Sequence record: PP658200.1
Direction: 5' to 3' (one strand)
Length of the DNA: 64,000 nucleotides
Origin: Escherichia phage HY126
Position 1 is the first letter of the stretch, and each line of letters starts with the position of its first letter. A program made the position numbers and the translations under genes. The notes beneath the pieces were generated by a model that was not told the DNA's origin, made no database searches, and was given only the letters and a program-made list of their open reading frames with translations. Shown here piece after piece: positions 32,339 to 61,207 of this stretch.

Positions 32339-32620
32339 TTACTTATCGCACTTAGCAACATAATTAGGCATATCACAGAATACGGAGCGAGTAACTACTC
32401 GGCCCTTTGACCATGCTTCAGTTGCTTGTCCGGCGGTGCTATTAATATAGCTTGATCTAATGTTCTCAATACCCTGAGAATGTGATGCATTTACCGAACC
32501 ATTAGAAGGCCCAGAAGACTGGTTACCACCAGCTCCTGCACTACCGCCAGCAGCACCCGTGGTAGCACCAACAGAGAACGCCATCATTACTGCGAATAAA
32601 CCAATTACTAATTTTTTCAT
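32339..32620 (-). CDS. Small secreted Gly/Ser-rich protein
   Basis: ORF track 93 aa; N-terminal signal peptide MKKLVIGLFAVMMAFSVGA, low-complexity Gly/Ala/Ser region. Confidence 0.55.
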   Translation of the reverse strand: MKKLVIGLFAVMMAFSVGATTGAAGGSAGAGGNQSSGPSNGSVNASHSQGIENIRSSYINSTAGQATEAWSKGRVVTRSVFCDMPNYVAKCDK

Positions 32621-35494: not shown

Positions 35495-35797
35495 TTAGAT
35501 AGATGTAGGCTCTAATTTTATTTTCATGAACTCGGCAAATTGTCTGGCGGTTTTTATGCCTTGTTCATGACATTCAAATGCATCATCACAGGGGCTATTT
35601 TTGTAATGCTTTGCCATATACTTATAGAATTTTTCAGAATTCTCGACATTTTGAATTTCAAACAAAGTATATACGTTTTTAATCCCTGATTCCATAAAGT
35701 TATCAAAATATGGGTCGATATGTGCAGTACCAACGATAGGAGTTGTTGCTGCAAAAAACCCCAGCATCGCTATGACAGCTATCGCTCTTAAGGCCAT
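35495..35797 (-). CDS. rI: Lysis-inhibition regulator RI (periplasmic antiholin partner)
   Basis: ORF track 100 aa; signal-anchor plus DPYFDNFMESGIKNVY...CDDAFEC matching T4 RI. Confidence 0.85.
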   Translation of the reverse strand: MALRAIAVIAMLGFFAATTPIVGTAHIDPYFDNFMESGIKNVYTLFEIQNVENSEKFYKYMAKHYKNSPCDDAFECHEQGIKTARQFAEFMKIKLEPTSI

Positions 35798-37024: not shown

Positions 37025-37227
37025 TATTCTTCTACATGTTGTTTACGACCTTTCTTATCAATAAAGGTATATTCAACGAATGTTCCAATATAGTCTTTAT
37101 CTACATCATGTGGACTATTAATTGGGCATTTAGTACGGCAAATGCGTTCCCATTGACGAATAATTACTGCCTTATTCTTTGGGTCATACGGATGTGGATA
37201 ATGTATATTCATAATAATGGTTCCCAA
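37000..37227 (-). CDS. Hypothetical protein
   Basis: ORF track 75 aa. Confidence 0.45.
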   Translation of the reverse strand: MGTIIMNIHYPHPYDPKNKAVIIRQWERICRTKCPINSPHDVDKDYIGTFVEYTFIDKKGRKQHVEEYCLKVTWL

Positions 37228-37706
37228 TCAACAATCACAATTTCTAGTTTAGTGGAATACGTATCTAAAATCTCTTCAATGACATCCCAGTTTCCACCAC
37301 CGATACCTGCACCAATTCTTGGCATATAAATTACAGGCTTTGTTATCTTATTCTTTCCGAATTCATTTAATTCTATTATACAATTCATTAAAGCAGAGTA
37401 CTCAAAATTAGGTCCCGGCTCAAACTGTGTATAAAGATTAAAGCAATAAGCTTTATGGGTCTTAAAATATTTTTCATAAACCGAATAAGTCCCGAGTTTA
37501 GACTCGTCTCCGAATTCGGTTTGAAGTTTATCGGCTTCCAGAATTTTTGGATAAGCCTTTGCTAATTGTCCTGCTACACCGGCGCCCATTGTATGAAAAC
37601 AATTACACCCATGAGCAATATTATTACCTTTAGAAAACAGGGCGACAATATCGCCCTTGATATAGTTTTTAATCACTTGCTGCAAGTCCTCTAGTATAAG
37701 AGTCAA
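37209..37706 (-). CDS. Macro-domain-like protein
   Basis: ORF track 165 aa; NIAHGCNCFHTMGAGVAGQL resembles macro-domain glycine-rich ADP-ribose-binding loop. Confidence 0.55.
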   Translation of the reverse strand: MTLILEDLQQVIKNYIKGDIVALFSKGNNIAHGCNCFHTMGAGVAGQLAKAYPKILEADKLQTEFGDESKLGTYSVYEKYFKTHKAYCFNLYTQFEPGPNFEYSALMNCIIELNEFGKNKITKPVIYMPRIGAGIGGGNWDVIEEILDTYSTKLEIVIVDWEPLL

Positions 37707-38016
37707 CTAGACGGTCCACCATAGAATTGCATGCTGCCTTATCTTTAGGTTCCGCCACCGAGCATTCTAATATTTGCCATTTTTTATAGTATCTTTTAAT
37801 TAAGGTAGACGCCTTGAACCTACTAGACGCCCCATCTTTTTCTCCGTCTTTATACGCATATAACAATTTTTGTGAAAAATCTACTTTACACTCTTGACTT
37901 TTACCACAATAATCAGACGCCGTTCTGTTTGTATACTCCGTTACATCAGTATATGTAGTATTAGCAAGAGCGCTAAATGAAACCAAGCCAACTATTAAAG
38001 CCAACATTTTGGTCAT
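37669..38016 (-). CDS. Small secreted protein
   Basis: ORF track 115 aa; signal peptide MTKMLALIVGLVSFSALA, four Cys. Confidence 0.5.
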   Translation of the reverse strand: MTKMLALIVGLVSFSALANTTYTDVTEYTNRTASDYCGKSQECKVDFSQKLLYAYKDGEKDGASSRFKASTLIKRYYKKWQILECSVAEPKDKAACNSMVDRLVDSYTRGLAASD

Positions 38017-38555
38017 TCTTTTATTTCCAGTAGTTTATTTGATTTAAGGTAATTAGCCTTTTCTAGGACTTCAGAAGCATATTTACTTCCAGCACTTGTC
38101 TTCCATCCCGCGTTATATGAGGATATAGCTTTTCTTATATCCCCGTTATGTATATTTAACCAATAAGAAAATTCGATATAAGCCCATCTGGCTGAATTAG
38201 ACCGCTTAGATAGCATTTTCTTAATTTGGGCATCAGTCATATTATAACCAAGCTGGTTAATTCTTGCCCTCATTGTTGGTAGATAATTTTGGAACATTCC
38301 ATACGCATGGTGACCTTTCTTATCTTTAAGATTAATACCGGCAGATGATTCCTGCCATAGTATTGCGGCCATTATGTATCCAAGTCCTTTCTTATGCATA
38401 TTTTCATGCGTTTTAAATTTTCCATCCTTAGAAAACTGTTCCCCAAACTGATAAGCATAATTCAAGTTATCGAGTTGGACATTACTAAAAGTATGCTCGG
38501 AGCTATGTGCTGATAATGAAAGAGCAAATAGACCAGCGAGTAGTGCTTTTCTCAT
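38013..38555 (-). CDS. Periplasmic lytic-transglycosylase-like protein
   Basis: ORF track 180 aa; signal peptide; SLT motifs ILWQESS, GMFQ, SYNAG. Confidence 0.6.
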   Translation of the reverse strand: MRKALLAGLFALSLSAHSSEHTFSNVQLDNLNYAYQFGEQFSKDGKFKTHENMHKKGLGYIMAAILWQESSAGINLKDKKGHHAYGMFQNYLPTMRARINQLGYNMTDAQIKKMLSKRSNSARWAYIEFSYWLNIHNGDIRKAISSYNAGWKTSAGSKYASEVLEKANYLKSNKLLEIKE

Positions 38556-38563
38556 GTTTACCT

Positions 38564-39022
38564 CTAGATTTTAATCACTGCTTTAGAAGCTTTTCCTGGT
38601 AGTCGTTTACTGTTAATAATAGCCATTCTGCATTGAAGAGTCTTCATTTTGAATGCTGGATTTTCGCGACAAACTGTAAGTCCTAACCAAAGATTTCCAT
38701 CAGTTATTTCTAAACGGCCTGGGCGATATTCGACACCTTCGACAAAATCTTCATCAACATCTGGACGTGCTGGCATTGATAAAAATTCTGCAACTTCTTT
38801 AACATGATTTTTTACTTTACGAAATAATTCAAAAACGTAATTCTCATCTATTTCTCTCTGGATGGCACGATCTAAGAGATGTTGAGAATACTTGATATGA
38901 AAGCCTGGTAGTCCAAGAGACTTTGCAGCATCTTTTATACTGGCATTTATTTTGCGGAACTCCGTTTCAAAGATTCGACGGAGTTTATTACGGCGGATAA
39001 AAACGTCTGAATTGATAGTCAT
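38564..39022 (-). CDS. regB: RegB site-specific endoribonuclease
   Basis: ORF track 152 aa; near-identical to T4 RegB (MTINSDVFIRRNKLRR...CRMAIINSKRLPGKASKAVIK). Confidence 0.9.
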   Translation of the reverse strand: MTINSDVFIRRNKLRRIFETEFRKINASIKDAAKSLGLPGFHIKYSQHLLDRAIQREIDENYVFELFRKVKNHVKEVAEFLSMPARPDVDEDFVEGVEYRPGRLEITDGNLWLGLTVCRENPAFKMKTLQCRMAIINSKRLPGKASKAVIKI

Positions 39023-39032
39023 TTTGATTTCT

Positions 39033-39079
39033 CCTCTAGTTGACAGGTCTATAGTAACACAACTAGAGGAGAAGTAAAC
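39033..39079 (-). promoter_or_regulatory. Promoter/stem-loop cassette with SD in 3' arm (upstream of regB)
   Basis: Minus sense GTTTAC-ttct-CCTCTAGTTG...TTACTATAGA...CAACTAGAGG then 10 nt, ATG; 10-bp inverted repeat. Confidence 0.5.
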
Positions 39080-39623: not shown

Positions 39624-39837
39624 AAGGAATTTCCTCATCTGTGGCAAGGTCATATTCGACCAATTGGATAGGCTCATTAATACCATATCCACGTACAGTG
39701 ATATCAGTTGCCGGATAGTTTCCAGTAATATCACCCGTTCTAAATGCTTCAATGAATGATTGCTCGCCTGAGCAACTAAACCAGGCGGCAAAACATTTTA
39801 AAACATCTTCAGACCCTTCTATAATCAATTTAGCCAT
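39613..39837 (-). CDS. Hypothetical protein
   Basis: ORF track 74 aa. Confidence 0.45.
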   Translation of the reverse strand: MAKLIIEGSEDVLKCFAAWFSCSGEQSFIEAFRTGDITGNYPATDITVRGYGINEPIQLVEYDLATDEEIPYVD

Positions 39838-40199
39838 TATAGACTCTCAGTAAAGGTACGAGCGATAACGTCACGCTGCTGTTCCGGAGTCAGAGAGTTA
39901 AAGCGAACTGCATAACCGGATACACGGATGGTCAACTGCGGATATTTTTCTGGATGCTTAACTGCATCTTCCAGAGTTTCACGACGCAGAACATTAACGT
40001 TCAGGTGTTGACCACCTTCAATTTTAACTTTAGGTTGATGTTCAATTTCAATTTCACGGGCATTCAAACCGTAGAAAATTTCCGGGTCTACAATAGCGTC
40101 TTCTTTAAAAGTCTTAGAGACAATAATCCGGGCTTGAGTACCGTCTTCAAAATAAATAGTGCCTTTGTGTGTGCCTTCAAGAATTTGATATGCTTTCAT
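39837..40199 (-). CDS. Autonomous glycyl-radical cofactor (GrcA/YfiD-like)
   Basis: ORF track 120 aa; C-terminal [27 protein letters not shown] matches the PFL/GrcA glycyl-radical motif. Confidence 0.85.
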
Positions 40200-42976: not shown

Positions 42977-43461
42977 ATATACGCTTTCCAAGTTCCTGTT
43001 TTAAATGTTGAGATTACACGTTTCGCGCGATTAGGTGTCTGACGATACCATTTAGATTGGGCTAGATTTACTGCCGCTTCATCCCAACGTTTCTGTTGAA
43101 GCATACGAAGAGAATTAGTAAAACCAGCGACGCCTGCTACACCCATTTGGAAGACCATATTGACCAATGCACAACGACGAACCGCATCTAAAGAATCATA
43201 TACAGGTTTAAGTTTAGCATTACCTAAGATTCCGCGAACGGCTTTATCAACGTCTTCATTAAATAGCTTTTCAGCCTCATCAAGGGTAATTGTACCGTTG
43301 CATTTACGACCGATCATTCTGTCAAGTTCAGCTTTAGCTACGGCTAAAGACGGGTTCTTTGTTACTAAATGGCCTATGCCAATCGTCCAAAAGCCTTCAG
43401 TGTCTTTGTATAAAGTCAGTCTAAGACCTTCGTCATTACGAAGCATTTCAAATATATTCAT
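42973..43461 (-). CDS. e: Endolysin (T4 lysozyme)
   Basis: Near-identical to T4 lysozyme from MNIFEMLR...[22 protein letters not shown]; track start is an upstream GTG. Confidence 0.95.
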
Positions 43462-59474: not shown

Positions 59475-61207
59475 TGGAAATGATTAGCAGTAGCCTTAAT
59501 TGGTTCGTTGGTGTTGTCGAGGACAGAATGGACCCATTAAAACAAGGGCGAGTTCGAGTTCGAGTCGTTGGTCTTCATCCGGCACAGAGAGCACAAGGTG
59601 ACGTACAAGGTATTCCTACAGAAAAACTTCCGTGGATGACTGTTATTCAACCTATTACGTCTGCGTCAATGTCAGGTATTGGTGGTTCTGTTACAGGTCC
59701 TGTTGAAGGAACTCGAGTATATGGTCATTTCTTAGACAAATGGAAAACAAACGGTATTGTACTCGGTACATACGGTGGAATTGTACGCGAAAAGCCTAAT
59801 AGACTCGAAGGTTTTTCCGACCCTACAGGTCAATATCCACGACGTTTAGGTAATGATACGAACGTATTAAACCAAGGCGGCGAAGCTGGTTATTATTCGA
59901 ACTCTAACGTAATTCAAGATAACAACTTGGATTATGGTATAAACCCAGATGATACAGATTTAGCAAATATTCCAGAAGATGATGACCCTAATTTTACAAT
60001 AACAGAAATGTTACGTCGTGACGAAGGTCTTCGTGATAAAGTGTATTGGGACCATCTCGGATATCCTACAGTAGGTATTGGACACCTTATCGTAATGGAA
60101 AAGACCCGAGATATGTCTCGAATTAATAAATTGTTATCTGATCAAGTAGGGCGTGAAGTAACAGGAAATCCCGGGACTATTACATTAGAAGAAGCAACAG
60201 CGTTATTTGAGAAGGACCTTGCTAAGATGCAGAAAGACATTCGTTCTAATTCTAAAGTAGGTCCTGTTTATGCTAAAATGAACAGATCACGCCAAATGGC
60301 ATTAGAAAACATGTGCTTCCAAATGGGCGTTGGTGGTGTAGCAAAATTCAATACTATGCTTAAAGCAATGGCCACAGGCGATTGGAAAACTGCATACAAA
60401 TCTGGACGCGATTCATTATGGTTCCAACAGACTAAAGGACGCGCTTCACGTGTAACAACAATTATTTTAACCGGTAACATGGAATCATACGGTGTTCCTG
60501 TTAAAACACCGCCTTCACCAGGAGTTGGTGCCGATTTAGTTACTAGAAATACCGATCCAGAAGACCCGGCTGGTCCTCCTGTTCCATTAGATTCGCGCAT
60601 CCTTTTTAAAGAACCGGAATCAAGTTATCGTGGCGAGTACCCATATGTTCATGCTATGGAAACAGAAAGTGGTCATATCCAAGAATTTGACGATACTCCA
60701 GGTAATGAACGTTATCGCTTAGTTCATCCAACAGGGTCATATGAGGAAGTTTCTCCGTCTGGGCGTCGTACTCGTAAAACTGTAGAAGACCTTTTTGACA
60801 TCACTAATGGCGACGGGAACTTCTTGATTTCTGGCGATAAGCTTGTTAACGTTGGCGCTAATGAAATATATTATAACATGGCAGACCGCCTCCATCAAAT
60901 AGACGGCAATGACACAATCTTTATTCGTGGTAACCAAGCTAAAACTGTTGAAGGCGATGGAACTCTTTACGTTAAGGGCAATATCAAAATAGTTGTTGAC
61001 GGAAATGCAGATATTCTTGTTAAAGGTGATGCTAAAACTCAGGTCGAAGGGAATCATGATTACACCGTCAACGGAAACGTTAAATGGACTGTTAATGGTA
61101 ATGTTGATATGACTGTTGCCGGGGATTGGGCAGAAACAATGTCTACAATGAGCTCAGTAGCTTCAGGACAATACACTGTTGACGGATCTCGTATTGATAT
61201 TGGGTAA
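59474..61207 (+). CDS. 5: Baseplate hub subunit and tail lysozyme
   Basis: ORF track 577 aa; MEMISSSLNWFVGVVEDRMDP, central lysozyme domain, C-terminal VxGxxxxxV beta-helix repeats. Confidence 0.95.
   Translation: MEMISSSLNWFVGVVEDRMDPLKQGRVRVRVVGLHPAQRAQGDVQGIPTEKLPWMTVIQPITSASMSGIGGSVTGPVEGTRVYGHFLDKWKTNGIVLGTYGGIVREKPNRLEGFSDPTGQYPRRLGNDTNVLNQGGEAGYYSNSNVIQDNNLDYGINPDDTDLANIPEDDDPNFTITEMLRRDEGLRDKVYWDHLGYPTVGIGHLIVMEKTRDMSRINKLLSDQVGREVTGNPGTITLEEATALFEKDLAKMQKDIRSNSKVGPVYAKMNRSRQMALENMCFQMGVGGVAKFNTMLKAMATGDWKTAYKSGRDSLWFQQTKGRASRVTTIILTGNMESYGVPVKTPPSPGVGADLVTRNTDPEDPAGPPVPLDSRILFKEPESSYRGEYPYVHAMETESGHIQEFDDTPGNERYRLVHPTGSYEEVSPSGRRTRKTVEDLFDITNGDGNFLISGDKLVNVGANEIYYNMADRLHQIDGNDTIFIRGNQAKTVEGDGTLYVKGNIKIVVDGNADILVKGDAKTQVEGNHDYTVNGNVKWTVNGNVDMTVAGDWAETMSTMSSVASGQYTVDGSRIDIG

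What the first reader, a model, noticed from the sequence alone, without database searches (positions are those of the whole stretch)
37669..38555. Pair of signal-peptide proteins including a periplasmic lytic-transglycosylase-like enzyme, separate from the endolysin
38013..38555 has a cleavable signal peptide and the three SLT-domain motifs (QESS, GMFQ, SYNAG). 37669..38016 is a 115-aa secreted Cys-containing protein whose start overlaps the SLT stop. The phage already encodes endolysin e and the gp5 tail lysozyme, so a third, Sec-exported muralytic enzyme made from the early region points to a periplasmic role during infection rather than lysis.
Basis: partly seen in the sequence, partly recalled or inferred. 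Interest (0 to 1): 0.4.

Follow-up and report, generated by a model that had tools for sequence, protein, structure and literature searches.

The report
T4 vs.1–vs exported gene pair
The two reading frames are the well-known phage T4 genes vs.1 (a predicted secreted cell-wall-cutting enzyme, untested) and vs (labelled a modifier of the host's cytoplasmic valyl-tRNA synthetase), and the new point is that vs has every sequence mark of a secreted protein, which clashes with its label.

Summary
The window is a T4-type (Mosigvirus-like) phage. ORF 38013..38555(-) is the ortholog of T4 vs.1, and 37669..38016(-) is the ortholog of T4 vs, the "valyl-tRNA synthetase modifier".

**Vs.1.** It has a signal peptide, an invariant Glu in WQES, and the GMFQN and SYNAG motifs. 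Its AlphaFold model matches only lytic transglycosylases and goose-type lysozyme. This SLT similarity was published in 2003 and 2006, so it is not new. The enzyme has not been tested.

**Vs.** It also has a signal peptide. This holds in all 56 orthologs examined, and five loci carry a lipoprotein lipobox instead. Four Cys are invariant. The mature part is a confident four-helix bundle that evolves much faster than Vs.1.

**The pair.** In 56 of 70 Vs.1 loci, vs starts within -8 to +7 nt of the vs.1 stop. Vs was never found without Vs.1.

**Best reading.** This is a conserved, co-translated, Sec-exported pair: a periplasmic lytic transglycosylase plus a small partner. That conflicts with the cytoplasmic role assigned to Vs, and I could not resolve the conflict. 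In T4 transposon data, vs is the most depleted gene in minimal medium and vs.1 trends the same way.

Known genes; moderate interest.

The parts
38013..38555 (-). vs.1 ortholog: 180-aa precursor of a predicted exported SLT-type (GH23-like) lytic transglycosylase
   Evidence: The ORF is. PHROG 600 matches at 3.7e-67. Pfam SLT scores 18.8 bits against a 21.3-bit cut-off for this protein, but hits 21 of 22 family members, best 1.3e-7. The protein is 84% identical to T4 Vs.1. The AF2 model has pLDDT 84.5. The Foldseek PDB top 15 are MltD, Slt, LtgA and goose-type lysozyme, with probability 0.87-1.0.
38502..38555 (-). Vs.1 signal peptide (aa 1-18, MRKALLAGLFALSLSAHS, predicted cut after A-H-S)
   Evidence: The heuristic n/h/c analysis is. 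The pattern is kept in Tevenvirinae, Acinetobacter, Aeromonas, Kuttervirus and Felixounavirus homologues although the sequence varies. AF2 pLDDT is about 50 here.
38343..38354 (-). SLT motif I, QESS (aa 68-71). E69 (38349..38351) is the predicted catalytic glutamate, at the C-terminal end of helix 59-70.
   Evidence: W67, E69 and S71 are invariant in 22 sequences. Helix boundaries come from the AF2 model.
38289..38300 (-). SLT motif II, GMFQ (aa 86-89)
   Evidence: G86, Q89 and N90 are invariant.
38106..38120 (-). SLT motif III, SYNAG (aa 146-150)
   Evidence: Y147, N148 and G150 are invariant; S146 and A149 are at least 90% conserved.
38561..38564 (-). GAGG Shine-Dalgarno of vs.1, overlapping the regB stop codon (8-nt regB-vs.1 gap)
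   Evidence: Read directly from the sequence.
38013..38016 (-). ATGA overlap: the vs start codon overlaps the vs.1 stop codon (translational coupling)
   Evidence: The overlap is read. The vs start lies -8 to +7 nt from the vs.1 stop in 56 of 70 related loci.
37669..38016 (-). vs ortholog ('valyl-tRNA synthetase modifier'): 115-aa precursor; the mature part (about 97 aa, 11.0 kDa) is a four-helix bundle
   Evidence: PHROG 1256 matches at 3e-35. Identity to T4 Vs is 68%. The family is PF26829. The AF2 model has pLDDT 86.7 with helices 20-37, 41-64, 69-85 and 90-114. No structural relative was found outside the family in PDB or BFVD.
37963..38016 (-). Vs signal peptide (aa 1-18, MTKMLALIVGLVSFSALA, predicted cut after A-L-A)
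   Evidence: All 36 aligned orthologs and all 56 locus orthologs have a K/R, then a hydrophobic core, then a small-x-small site, while the sequence is only 29% identical. Five loci and P0164 have the lipobox ALSGC instead. AF2 pLDDT is 47-56 here.
37906..37908 (-). Cys37 codon. With Cys43 (37888..37890), Cys85 (37762..37764) and Cys96 (37729..37731) it makes up the four invariant cysteines, all at one end of the bundle.
   Evidence: The four Cys are invariant in 36 sequences, in the distant members P0162 and P0164, and in 47 of 47 full-length locus orthologs.
38564..39022 (-). regB (endoribonuclease), first gene of the tightly packed regB-vs.1-vs-tk.4 run
   Evidence: Pfam REGB_T4 matches at 3.1e-69. 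Synteny is kept in T4, VR26, Potts1 and L005.
39031..39079 (-). T4-early-promoter-like GTTTAC / TGnTACTAT plus a 12-bp inverted repeat upstream of regB; the likely transcription start for the block
   Evidence: Read from the sequence. It was not picked up by the consensus scan, so it is an inference.

Best explanation
The two ORFs are the orthologs of phage T4 vs.1 and vs, and they form one conserved, translationally coupled two-gene module whose products are both exported through the Sec pathway.

**Vs.1.** It is made as a 20.6-kDa precursor, loses an 18-residue signal peptide, and is released into the periplasm as an 18.7-kDa basic enzyme. It has the goose-lysozyme/SLT fold, and Glu69 would cleave the MurNAc-GlcNAc bond of host peptidoglycan to give 1,6-anhydro-MurNAc ends. 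The gene sits behind regB in the pre-replicative leftward block. Vs.1 would therefore act on the sacculus from within the periplasm during infection, well before holin/endolysin lysis.

**Vs.** It is translated by ribosomes terminating on vs.1. It is exported and cleaved, or in some phages lipid-anchored. It folds into an 11-kDa four-helix bundle held by its four conserved cysteines.

**Partnership.** Vs never occurs without vs.1 directly upstream, and it evolves much faster than vs.1. I therefore infer that Vs is a periplasmic partner that tunes or restrains the transglycosylase, or that targets a variable host or competitor envelope component.

**Shown here:** gene identity, motifs, fold, signal-peptide architecture and its conservation, gene coupling and co-occurrence.

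**Inferred:** export, cleavage, disulfides, enzymatic activity, timing, and any Vs.1-Vs interaction.
For: **Identity and synteny.**

**SLT membership.**
- The motifs E69-S, G86-x-x-Q89 and Y147-N-x-G150 are invariant.
- Pfam SLT hits 21 of 22 family members.
- The AF2 model has pLDDT 84.5, and the Foldseek PDB hits with probability above 0.85 are lytic transglycosylases and goose-type lysozyme.

**Export of Vs.1.** The signal peptide is kept in three unrelated myovirus lineages.

**Export of Vs.**
- The signal-like N-terminus is present in 56 of 56 orthologs while its sequence drifts (29% identity).
- Lipobox variants exist.
- Four Cys are invariant.
- AF2 gives low confidence only for the N-terminal 18-20 residues.
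- Only 3 of 165 window ORFs pass the same heuristic.

**Coupling.**
- The gap is -8 to +7 nt in 56 of 70 loci.
- All 27 Vs loci lie on contigs that also hold Vs.1.

**Rates.** Mean pairwise identity is 0.40 for Vs, 0.67 for Vs.1 and 0.59 for RegB.

**Phenotype in T4 (HIDEN-SEQ, 10.1101/2025.11.20.689424).**
- Both genes are dispensable in LB.
- Both have roughly ten-fold lower insertion counts than their neighbours.
- In M9 versus LB, vs has log2FC -2.19 (adjusted p 0), and vs.1 has -0.87 (p 0.0055, adjusted 0.155).

**Solubility.** His-tagged T4 Vs made in the cytoplasm is insoluble (PMC8076793).
Against: - T4 vs is defined genetically and biochemically as the source of a roughly 10-kDa factor that binds cytoplasmic ValRS. 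From my own knowledge of Neidhardt's and Marchin's work, not re-read here, it rescues a temperature-sensitive ValRS in vivo. That requires a cytoplasmic protein.
- The minimal-medium phenotype of vs fits an aminoacylation role at least as well as an envelope role.
- The vs.1 depletion in M9 is not significant after correction, and it may be a polar effect on vs.
- Vs.1 occurs without Vs in Aeromonas, Slopekvirus-like, Kuttervirus, Felixounavirus and jumbo phages, so Vs is not required for Vs.1 to function.
- The window protein itself is below Pfam's SLT gathering score (18.8 versus 21.3 bits). Foldseek E-values are weak (0.08 or higher) and TM is about 0.5.
- No enzymatic data exist.
- No dedicated signal-peptide predictor and no model coordinates were available. 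Cleavage versus a signal anchor, and disulfides versus a metal site, are therefore undecided.
Confidence: 0.55

Rival explanations
1. The annotation is right as it stands. Vs is the cytoplasmic tau factor that binds host ValRS. Its hydrophobic N-terminus is not, or only inefficiently, used for export. Its position behind vs.1 is ordinary T4 gene packing with no functional link. Only Vs.1 is periplasmic.
For: - The window protein is 68% identical to T4 Vs, and the whole family is labelled ValRS modifier.
- The T4 vs knockout is specifically impaired in glucose minimal medium, where charging of tRNA-Val could plausibly be limiting.
- Overlapping start and stop codons are the rule across the whole block, for example the 8-nt vs/tk.4 overlap.
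- The mature size of 11.0 kDa and the precursor size of 12.8-13.1 kDa are both near the reported ~10 kDa.
Against: - A signal-peptide architecture kept in 56 of 56 orthologs despite sequence drift, plus lipobox variants, would have no reason to persist in a cytoplasmic protein.
- There are four invariant Cys and no CxxC-type spacing.
- ValRS is highly conserved among enterobacteria (established knowledge), yet Vs is the fastest-evolving of the three neighbours.
- Vs orthologs persist in Acinetobacter phages, always glued to vs.1.
- I could not find the primary evidence that links the genetic locus to this particular ORF.
Confidence: 0.3
2. Vs.1 is an accessory lysis enzyme rather than an early periplasmic remodeller. 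Its weakly hydrophobic, Ala/Gly/Ser-rich N-terminus would act as a signal-anchor-release (SAR) domain. That domain would keep the enzyme tethered and inactive until the T holin depolarises the membrane, with Vs possibly acting as a brake.
For: - The hydrophobic region ALLAGLFALSLSA is rich in Ala, Gly and Ser.
- T4 already uses a SAR domain in RI. That is established knowledge; rI lies 2 kb away at 35495..35797.
- The Felixounavirus homologue is annotated 'putative lysin' and lies near the spanins.
- Earlier authors suggested 'some role in cell lysis'.
Against: - The uncharged stretch is only 13-16 residues long and is followed by a canonical small-x-small site in every lineage, which fits a cleaved signal peptide better.
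- The gene sits in the pre-replicative block, not with the late or lysis genes.
- vs.1 is dispensable in T4, whereas e and t score as essential or near-essential in the same screen.
Confidence: 0.12
3. Vs.1 has the SLT fold but is not an active glycan-cleaving enzyme. It would serve as a peptidoglycan-binding or decoy protein in the periplasm.
For: - The Pfam score is below the gathering threshold.
- Profile searches of PDB sequences find nothing.
- Foldseek E-values are weak.
- A family-specific N-terminal helix (F23..G38) precedes the core.
Against: The catalytic Glu and all three family-1 motifs are invariant across 22 sequences down to 39% identity, and also in the Kuttervirus and Felixounavirus homologues. 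This is the pattern expected of an enzyme under selection for catalysis.
Confidence: 0.08

Closest known systems
Phage T4 Vs.1 (NP_049725) and its orthologs (PHROG 600)
   Same: It is the same gene. Identity to T4 is 84%, and 100%-identical copies exist in public Mosigvirus genomes. It occupies the same position between regB and vs.
   Different: Nothing differs. The family has no experimentally determined function.
Phage T4 Vs, 'valyl-tRNA synthetase modifier' (NP_049724; PF26829; PHROG 1256)
   Same: It is the same gene: 68% identity to T4, the same length, and the same position overlapping vs.1 and tk.4.
   Different: The sequence features (signal peptide, lipobox variants, four Cys) point to the periplasm, whereas the assigned function is cytoplasmic.
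Family-1 lytic transglycosylases (Slt70/Slt, MltD, LtgA; Pfam SLT PF01464, GH23) and goose-type lysozyme
   Same: The helical fold, the Glu-Ser catalytic motif at a helix end, and the G-x-x-Q and Y-N-x-G motifs are shared.
   Different: Vs.1 is a single small domain of 162 aa with its own conserved N-terminal helix. Sequence similarity is marginal (12-21% identity in structural alignments). It is phage-only and made during infection.
Phage muralytic enzymes with other roles: lambda R transglycosylase (endolysin), T7 gp16 and PRD1 P7 (virion entry enzymes), T4 e and gp5
   Same: All are phage-encoded cell-wall glycan cleavers. T7 core protein gp16 appears as a weak Foldseek hit (rank 16).
   Different: Those enzymes lack Sec signal peptides. 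They reach the wall through a holin or from the virion. Vs.1 would be exported on its own, from an early gene block.
T4 Spackle (sp): small, signal-peptide-bearing, helical periplasmic protein that inhibits the gp5 lysozyme
   Same: It is a concept-level analogue for Vs: an early, small, helical, exported T4 protein with cysteines that acts on a muralytic enzyme (established knowledge).
   Different: Spackle does not appear among the listed PDB or BFVD fold-search hits for the Vs model. There is no evidence that Vs binds any lysozyme.
Proteinaceous lysozyme / LT inhibitors (Ivy, MliC/PliC, PliG, LprI/DUF1311)
   Same: They are small periplasmic or lipid-anchored proteins, often encoded next to or acting on glycan-cleaving enzymes. 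Some Vs orthologs are lipoproteins.
   Different: Those inhibitors are mostly beta-rich, except DUF1311. There was no Pfam hit and only a chance-level DUF1311 fold hit (rank 36, probability 0.05).

Membership tests
Family-1 lytic transglycosylase / Pfam SLT (PF01464) | Catalytic Glu followed by Ser (E-S motif) at the C-terminal end of a helix | tested here: met
   W67-Q-E69-S-S71 is present, and E69 and S71 are invariant in 22 sequences. E69 lies at the end of predicted helix 59-70.
Family-1 lytic transglycosylase / Pfam SLT (PF01464) | Motif II, G-[LM]-[MF]-Q, and motif III, [AS]-Y-N-x-G | tested here: met
   G86-M-F-Q89-N90 and S146-Y147-N148-A-G150 are present, and the key residues are invariant.
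Family-1 lytic transglycosylase / Pfam SLT (PF01464) | Score above Pfam's gathering threshold | tested here: inconclusive
   The window protein scores 18.8 bits against a cut-off of 21.3 (E = 1.3e-3). However, 21 of 22 family members hit SLT at E of 0.01 or better, best 1.3e-7.
Family-1 lytic transglycosylase / Pfam SLT (PF01464) | Goose-type-lysozyme-like all-helical fold | tested here: met
   The AF2 model has pLDDT 84.5. The top 15 Foldseek PDB hits are MltD, Slt, LtgA and ostrich g-lysozyme, with probability 0.87-1.0 and TMq 0.40-0.52, but E-values of only 0.08-0.75.
Family-1 lytic transglycosylase / Pfam SLT (PF01464) | Non-hydrolytic cleavage giving 1,6-anhydro-MurNAc products | not testable with these tools
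   This needs an enzyme assay on sacculi with muropeptide analysis.
Sec (type I) signal peptide | Positive n-region, 7-15-residue hydrophobic core, small residues at -3 and -1, hydrophilic mature protein | tested here: met
   Both proteins pass the heuristic, along with only one other of 165 window ORFs. The architecture is conserved in 36 Vs and 22 Vs.1 sequences and in the locus survey. No SignalP-type predictor was available.
T4 Vs family (PF26829 ValRS_modifier, PHROG 1256) | Sequence homology to T4 Vs over the full length | tested here: met
   Identity to T4 Vs is 68%. PHROG 1256 matches at 3e-35. PF26829 is recorded on all homologues.
T4 Vs family (PF26829 ValRS_modifier, PHROG 1256) | Binds and modifies cytoplasmic host valyl-tRNA synthetase | not testable with these tools
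   No complex prediction or assay was possible. The sequence features (signal peptide, lipobox variants, four Cys) argue against a cytoplasmic location.
SAR (signal-anchor-release) muralytic enzymes | Uncleaved, weakly hydrophobic N-terminal transmembrane domain of about 16-20 residues that leaves the membrane on depolarisation | tested here: inconclusive
   The hydrophobic region is Ala/Gly/Ser-rich, but the uncharged run is only 16 residues (aa 4-19) and includes a canonical A-x-S site. Cleavage itself cannot be tested here.
Known lysozyme/LT inhibitor families (Ivy, MliC/PliC, PliG, LprI) and T4 Spackle, as candidates for Vs | Sequence or fold similarity to a characterised inhibitor | tested here: not met
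   There was no Pfam, NCBIfam or PADLOC hit for Vs. PDB and BFVD fold searches return only Vs-family members above noise.

The most novel reading that the evidence does not exclude
The ORF called vs is not, or not only, a cytoplasmic modifier of valyl-tRNA synthetase. It would be the exported, disulfide-stabilised partner, such as an inhibitor, regulator or targeting subunit, of the exported lytic transglycosylase Vs.1.

Together they would form a periplasmic cell-wall-remodelling module. That module is conserved across T4-like phages of enterobacteria and Acinetobacter, and it matters most on slow-growing, nutrient-limited hosts.

If so, the 'ValRS modifier' label would be one of two things. 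It could be a historical mis-assignment of the genetic locus to this ORF. Or it could be a second activity of a precursor fraction retained in the cytoplasm.
Probability: 0.3. Interest if true: 0.7.

Novelty: already known. Interest (0 to 1): 0.4.

Why it matters
Vs.1 and Vs are conserved in hundreds to thousands of T4-like and other large virulent phages. These include many proposed for therapy (2060 and 795 public phage records respectively). Neither protein has a mechanistically understood role.

An enzyme that a phage exports into the periplasm minutes after infection, separately from its endolysin and its tail lysozyme, would be a distinct way of manipulating the host wall. Possible uses are growth of the infected cell, turnover and recycling, lysis timing, or competition with other phages.

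The purpose of the T4 modification of valyl-tRNA synthetase has been an open question since the 1960s. If the gene assigned to it really encodes a secreted protein, either that assignment or the view of where the protein acts needs revisiting. The recently reported minimal-medium phenotype of vs gives a direct assay for testing this.

Tried and rejected
- **PDB sequence searches** with Vs.1, Vs and the Vs.1 profile gave nothing meaningful.
- **NCBIfam and PADLOC** gave no hits for either protein.
- **Fold searches with the Vs model** against PDB and BFVD returned only generic helical bundles outside its own family. There was no Spackle and no known lysozyme inhibitor. A DUF1311 hit at probability 0.05 was rejected as noise.
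- **The Vs profile against 1.84 billion representatives** gave 8 hits, all phage Vs. No cellular homologue could hint at a function.
- **Primary papers.** Miller 2003 (PMC150520) and Müller & Marchin 1975 (PMC354445) are not held. Searches for the ORF-to-locus evidence and for any experimental work on vs.1 found none.
- **The consensus promoter scan** found no promoter directly in front of vs.1 or vs. MotA-box matches are not positioned to serve them.
- **A4** was too divergent for the search for related loci, so A3 was used instead.
- **Virion enzyme.** I considered and rejected the idea that Vs.1 is a virion enzyme, because a cleavable signal peptide is incompatible with cytoplasmic assembly.
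- **Chance.** I also rejected the idea that the two signal peptides are a chance finding, given a base rate of 3 in 165 and conservation across lineages.
Full report
**1. What the window is and what the ORFs are.**
A 1.9-kb stretch around the finding is 99.2% identical to several T4-type coliphages of the genus Mosigvirus and matches 656 phage records.

The leftward gene order here is regB (38564..39022), a 180-aa ORF (38013..38555), a 115-aa ORF (37669..38016), a macrodomain gene (37209..37676), three small ORFs, and tk. T4 itself has the same order, regB, vs.1, vs, tk.4, tk.3-tk.1, tk. So do a Gaprivervirus and a Klebsiella phage.

The 180-aa protein is PHROG 600, 84% identical to T4 Vs.1, with 100%-identical copies in public genomes. 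The 115-aa protein is PHROG 1256 / PF26829 and is 68% identical to T4 Vs, the 'valyl-tRNA synthetase modifier'.

**2. Checking the observation.**
- both N-termini;
- the QESS, GMFQ and SYNAG motifs;
- the four cysteines;
- the ATGA start/stop overlap at 38013..38016.

A fixed heuristic was applied to all 165 ATG-ORFs of at least 60 aa in the window. It requires a positive n-region, an uncharged hydrophobic core, a small-x-small site and no further membrane segment. Only three ORFs pass, and two of them are these neighbours. The same call locates endolysin e at 42979..43461 and the gp5 lysozyme domain at 59999..60490. The phage therefore does have two other muralytic enzymes.

**3. Vs.1.**
- *Conservation.* In an alignment of 22 homologues down to 39% identity, the invariant residues include W67, E69, S71, G86, Q89, N90, Y147, N148 and G150. 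These are the three motifs that define family-1 lytic transglycosylases.
- *Pfam.* The window protein alone is just below Pfam's SLT cut-off (18.8 versus 21.3 bits). Even so, 21 of the 22 members hit SLT, with a best E-value of 1.3e-7.
- *Structure.* The AlphaFold model (pLDDT 84.5) is all-helical, with E69 at the end of helix 59-70. The fifteen best Foldseek matches in the PDB are MltD, Slt, LtgA and a goose-type lysozyme. Probabilities are 0.87-1.0, but E-values are weak (0.08-0.75) and TM is about 0.5. It is thus a divergent small member of the SLT fold.
- *Signal peptide.* It is present throughout the family, including the Acinetobacter, Aeromonas, Kuttervirus and Felixounavirus homologues.
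- *Distribution.* The family is found in 2060 phage records and appears phage-only.
- *Prior literature.* The SLT resemblance of vs.1 was reported by Nolan et al. 2006, who cite Miller et al. 2003 for the same match and suggested 'some role in cell lysis' (PMC1524935). I found no experimental work on it.

**4. Vs.**
- *N-terminus.* Thirty-six orthologs share a variable N-terminal 17-24 residues that always read K/R, hydrophobic core, small-x-small. A well-conserved mature part follows, with four invariant cysteines and an invariant C-terminal C-x-SMVDRLVDSY-x-RGL.
- *Structure.* AlphaFold predicts a four-helix bundle (helices 20-37, 41-64, 69-85, 90-114). pLDDT is above 90 for the mature part and about 50 for the N-terminus. 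All four cysteines lie at the same end of the bundle.
- *Fold relatives.* None were found outside the family in the PDB or BFVD.
- *Family breadth.* A profile search of 1.84 billion representatives finds only eight clusters. Two are distant members: P0162 has a classical signal peptide, and P0164 has a lipoprotein lipobox (ALSGC). Both keep the four cysteines.
- *Location of the distant members.* Both are encoded directly downstream of a Vs.1 ortholog that is still 65-68% identical to the window's.
- *Acinetobacter.* Phage AB-Navy1 has an unannotated Vs-like gene in the same position.

**5. The pair as a module.**
I surveyed 70 loci encoding Vs.1 relatives in IMG/VR.
- In 56 of them, the gene starting -8 to +7 nt from the vs.1 stop matches a Vs profile (E from 1e-54 to 4e-14).
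- All 56 have a signal-like N-terminus.
- All have four cysteines, apart from two truncated alleles.
- Five carry the lipobox.
- The other 14 loci have Vs.1 alone. These are Aeromonas-type, Slopekvirus-like and jumbo phages.

All 27 Vs loci found independently lie on contigs of the Vs.1 set. In these surveys, therefore, Vs does not occur without Vs.1, but Vs.1 occurs without Vs.

Across 47 loci, mean pairwise identity is 0.67 for Vs.1, 0.59 for RegB and 0.40 for mature Vs. The first 18 residues of Vs are only 29% identical.

**6. Expression and phenotype.**
The block is tightly packed. The regB stop overlaps the vs.1 Shine-Dalgarno, vs.1 and vs overlap by 4 nt, and vs and tk.4 overlap by 8 nt.

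The only sizeable gap lies upstream of regB. It holds a T4-early-promoter-like GTTTAC / TGnTACTAT and an inverted repeat over the regB ribosome site. The generic promoter scan did not flag it. Pre-replicative expression is therefore inferred from this and from what is established for T4.

In the T4 HIDEN-SEQ transposon screen (bioRxiv 10.1101/2025.11.20.689424):
- vs and vs.1 are both non-essential in LB;
- both have far lower mean insertion counts (26.6 and 22.6) than their neighbours vs.3 (652), vs.4 (265) and tk.4 (290);
- in M9-glucose versus LB, vs is the most depleted gene (log2FC -2.19, adjusted p 0), and a clean knockout plaques poorly on minimal medium;
- vs.1 moves the same way (log2FC -0.87, p 0.0055, adjusted 0.155). 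This could be a polar effect on vs.

N-terminally His-tagged T4 Vs expressed in the E. coli cytoplasm goes to inclusion bodies (PMC8076793). That is compatible with an uncleaved signal peptide and unformed disulfides, but it does not prove them.

**7. Interpretation.**
The best-supported reading is a co-translated, Sec-exported pair: a soluble periplasmic lytic transglycosylase and a small cysteine-stabilised helical partner.

Export of Vs.1 is well supported. Activity is likely but untested.

Export of Vs is supported by the conserved signal architecture, the lipobox variants and the cysteines. It collides with the accepted function of Vs as the roughly 10-kDa factor that binds cytoplasmic valyl-tRNA synthetase. 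From my own knowledge of the classical papers, which are not held in the library, that factor also rescues a thermolabile ValRS in vivo.

I could not find the evidence that ties that genetic locus to this particular ORF. The T4 GenBank records carry no note. The predicted mature mass (11.0 kDa) and the precursor mass (12.8-13.1 kDa) are both compatible with the reported size.

The conflict therefore stands. One possibility is that the N-terminus is not used for export and the annotation is right, which I put at about 0.3. The other is that the protein is periplasmic and the label is a mis-assignment or a second activity.

A functional Vs.1-Vs interaction is my inference from strict adjacency and one-way co-occurrence. 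It is weakened by the lineages that have Vs.1 alone.

**8. Comparison with known systems and verdict.**
Vs.1 works like a family-1 lytic transglycosylase and passes the motif and fold tests. It is borderline on the Pfam threshold.

Unlike lambda R, T7 gp16, PRD1 P7, T4 e or gp5, it carries its own Sec signal and sits among early genes.

Vs resembles T4 Spackle only in concept, as a small exported helical early protein. It is not related to Spackle or to known lysozyme inhibitors by sequence or fold.

The genes, and the SLT prediction, are already known. What seems not to have been pointed out is that the 'ValRS modifier' has the hallmarks of a secreted or lipid-anchored protein and is locked to an exported transglycosylase.

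That is a testable puzzle of moderate interest (0.4). The finding as written is otherwise ordinary annotation.

Noticed in passing
window 37209..37676 (-): The gene just downstream of vs is the tk.4 macrodomain protein (Pfam Macro, 2.2e-6). Its GTG start overlaps the vs stop by 8 nt. The mechanical ORF list extends it to a TTG at 37706. In T4 this gene was recently named adfM, an anti-DarTG2 counter-defence factor (bioRxiv 10.1101/2025.11.20.689424).
   Followed up: partly
window 32339..32620 (-): This 93-aa ORF (MKKLVIGLFAVMMAFSVGA|TTGAAGGSAGA...) is the only other ORF in the window that passes the signal-peptide heuristic. It has a Gly/Ala-rich mature N-terminus and 2 Cys. It belongs to PHROG 2243, function unknown.
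   Followed up: partly
window 39031..39079 (-): The 56-nt gap upstream of regB holds a T4-early-promoter-like GTTTAC, a 16-nt spacer and TGnTACTAT. It also holds a 12-bp inverted repeat (39060..39071 with 39031..39042) that would sequester the regB GGAG ribosome site. The generic promoter scan missed it.
   Followed up: no
L007:2956-3288 (Acinetobacter phage AB-Navy1) and L057-L065: Acinetobacter T4-like phages carry an unannotated, highly diverged Vs homologue with a signal peptide and four Cys. It overlaps the vs.1 stop and is labelled only 'hypothetical protein'. tblastn with the window Vs does not detect it.
   Followed up: yes
L041-L043, L045, L066, L005:4401-4727 (P0164): A subgroup of Vs orthologs has a lipoprotein lipobox (ALSGC followed by K) instead of a type I cleavage site. 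This predicts a lipid-anchored form.
   Followed up: partly
L030:3041-3298 (= phage vB_EcoM_005, P0160) and L045:3049-3246: These are truncated vs alleles of 85 and 65 aa with only two of the four Cys. They suggest that vs is decaying in some phages while vs.1 stays intact.
   Followed up: no
public records listed: Annotation errors have propagated. vs.1 is variously named 'endoribonuclease RegB domain-containing protein', 'putative RNA endonuclease', 'C-type lysozyme/alpha-lactalbumin family protein' or 'putative ABC transporter ATP-binding protein'. vs is often named 'valyl-tRNA synthetase' itself.
   Followed up: no
window 38441..38489 (-), Vs.1 aa 23-38: The Vs.1 family has its own conserved N-terminal helix ahead of the SLT core, F23-x3-Q27-x2-N30-x3-A34-x3-G38. 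It is modelled with high confidence and is kept even in the Kuttervirus and Felixounavirus homologues. Its role is unknown.
   Followed up: no
window 39837..40199 (-): This is the vs.6 ortholog, a GrcA-like stand-alone glycyl-radical domain (spare part for pyruvate formate-lyase). It is annotated as such in related genomes.
   Followed up: no
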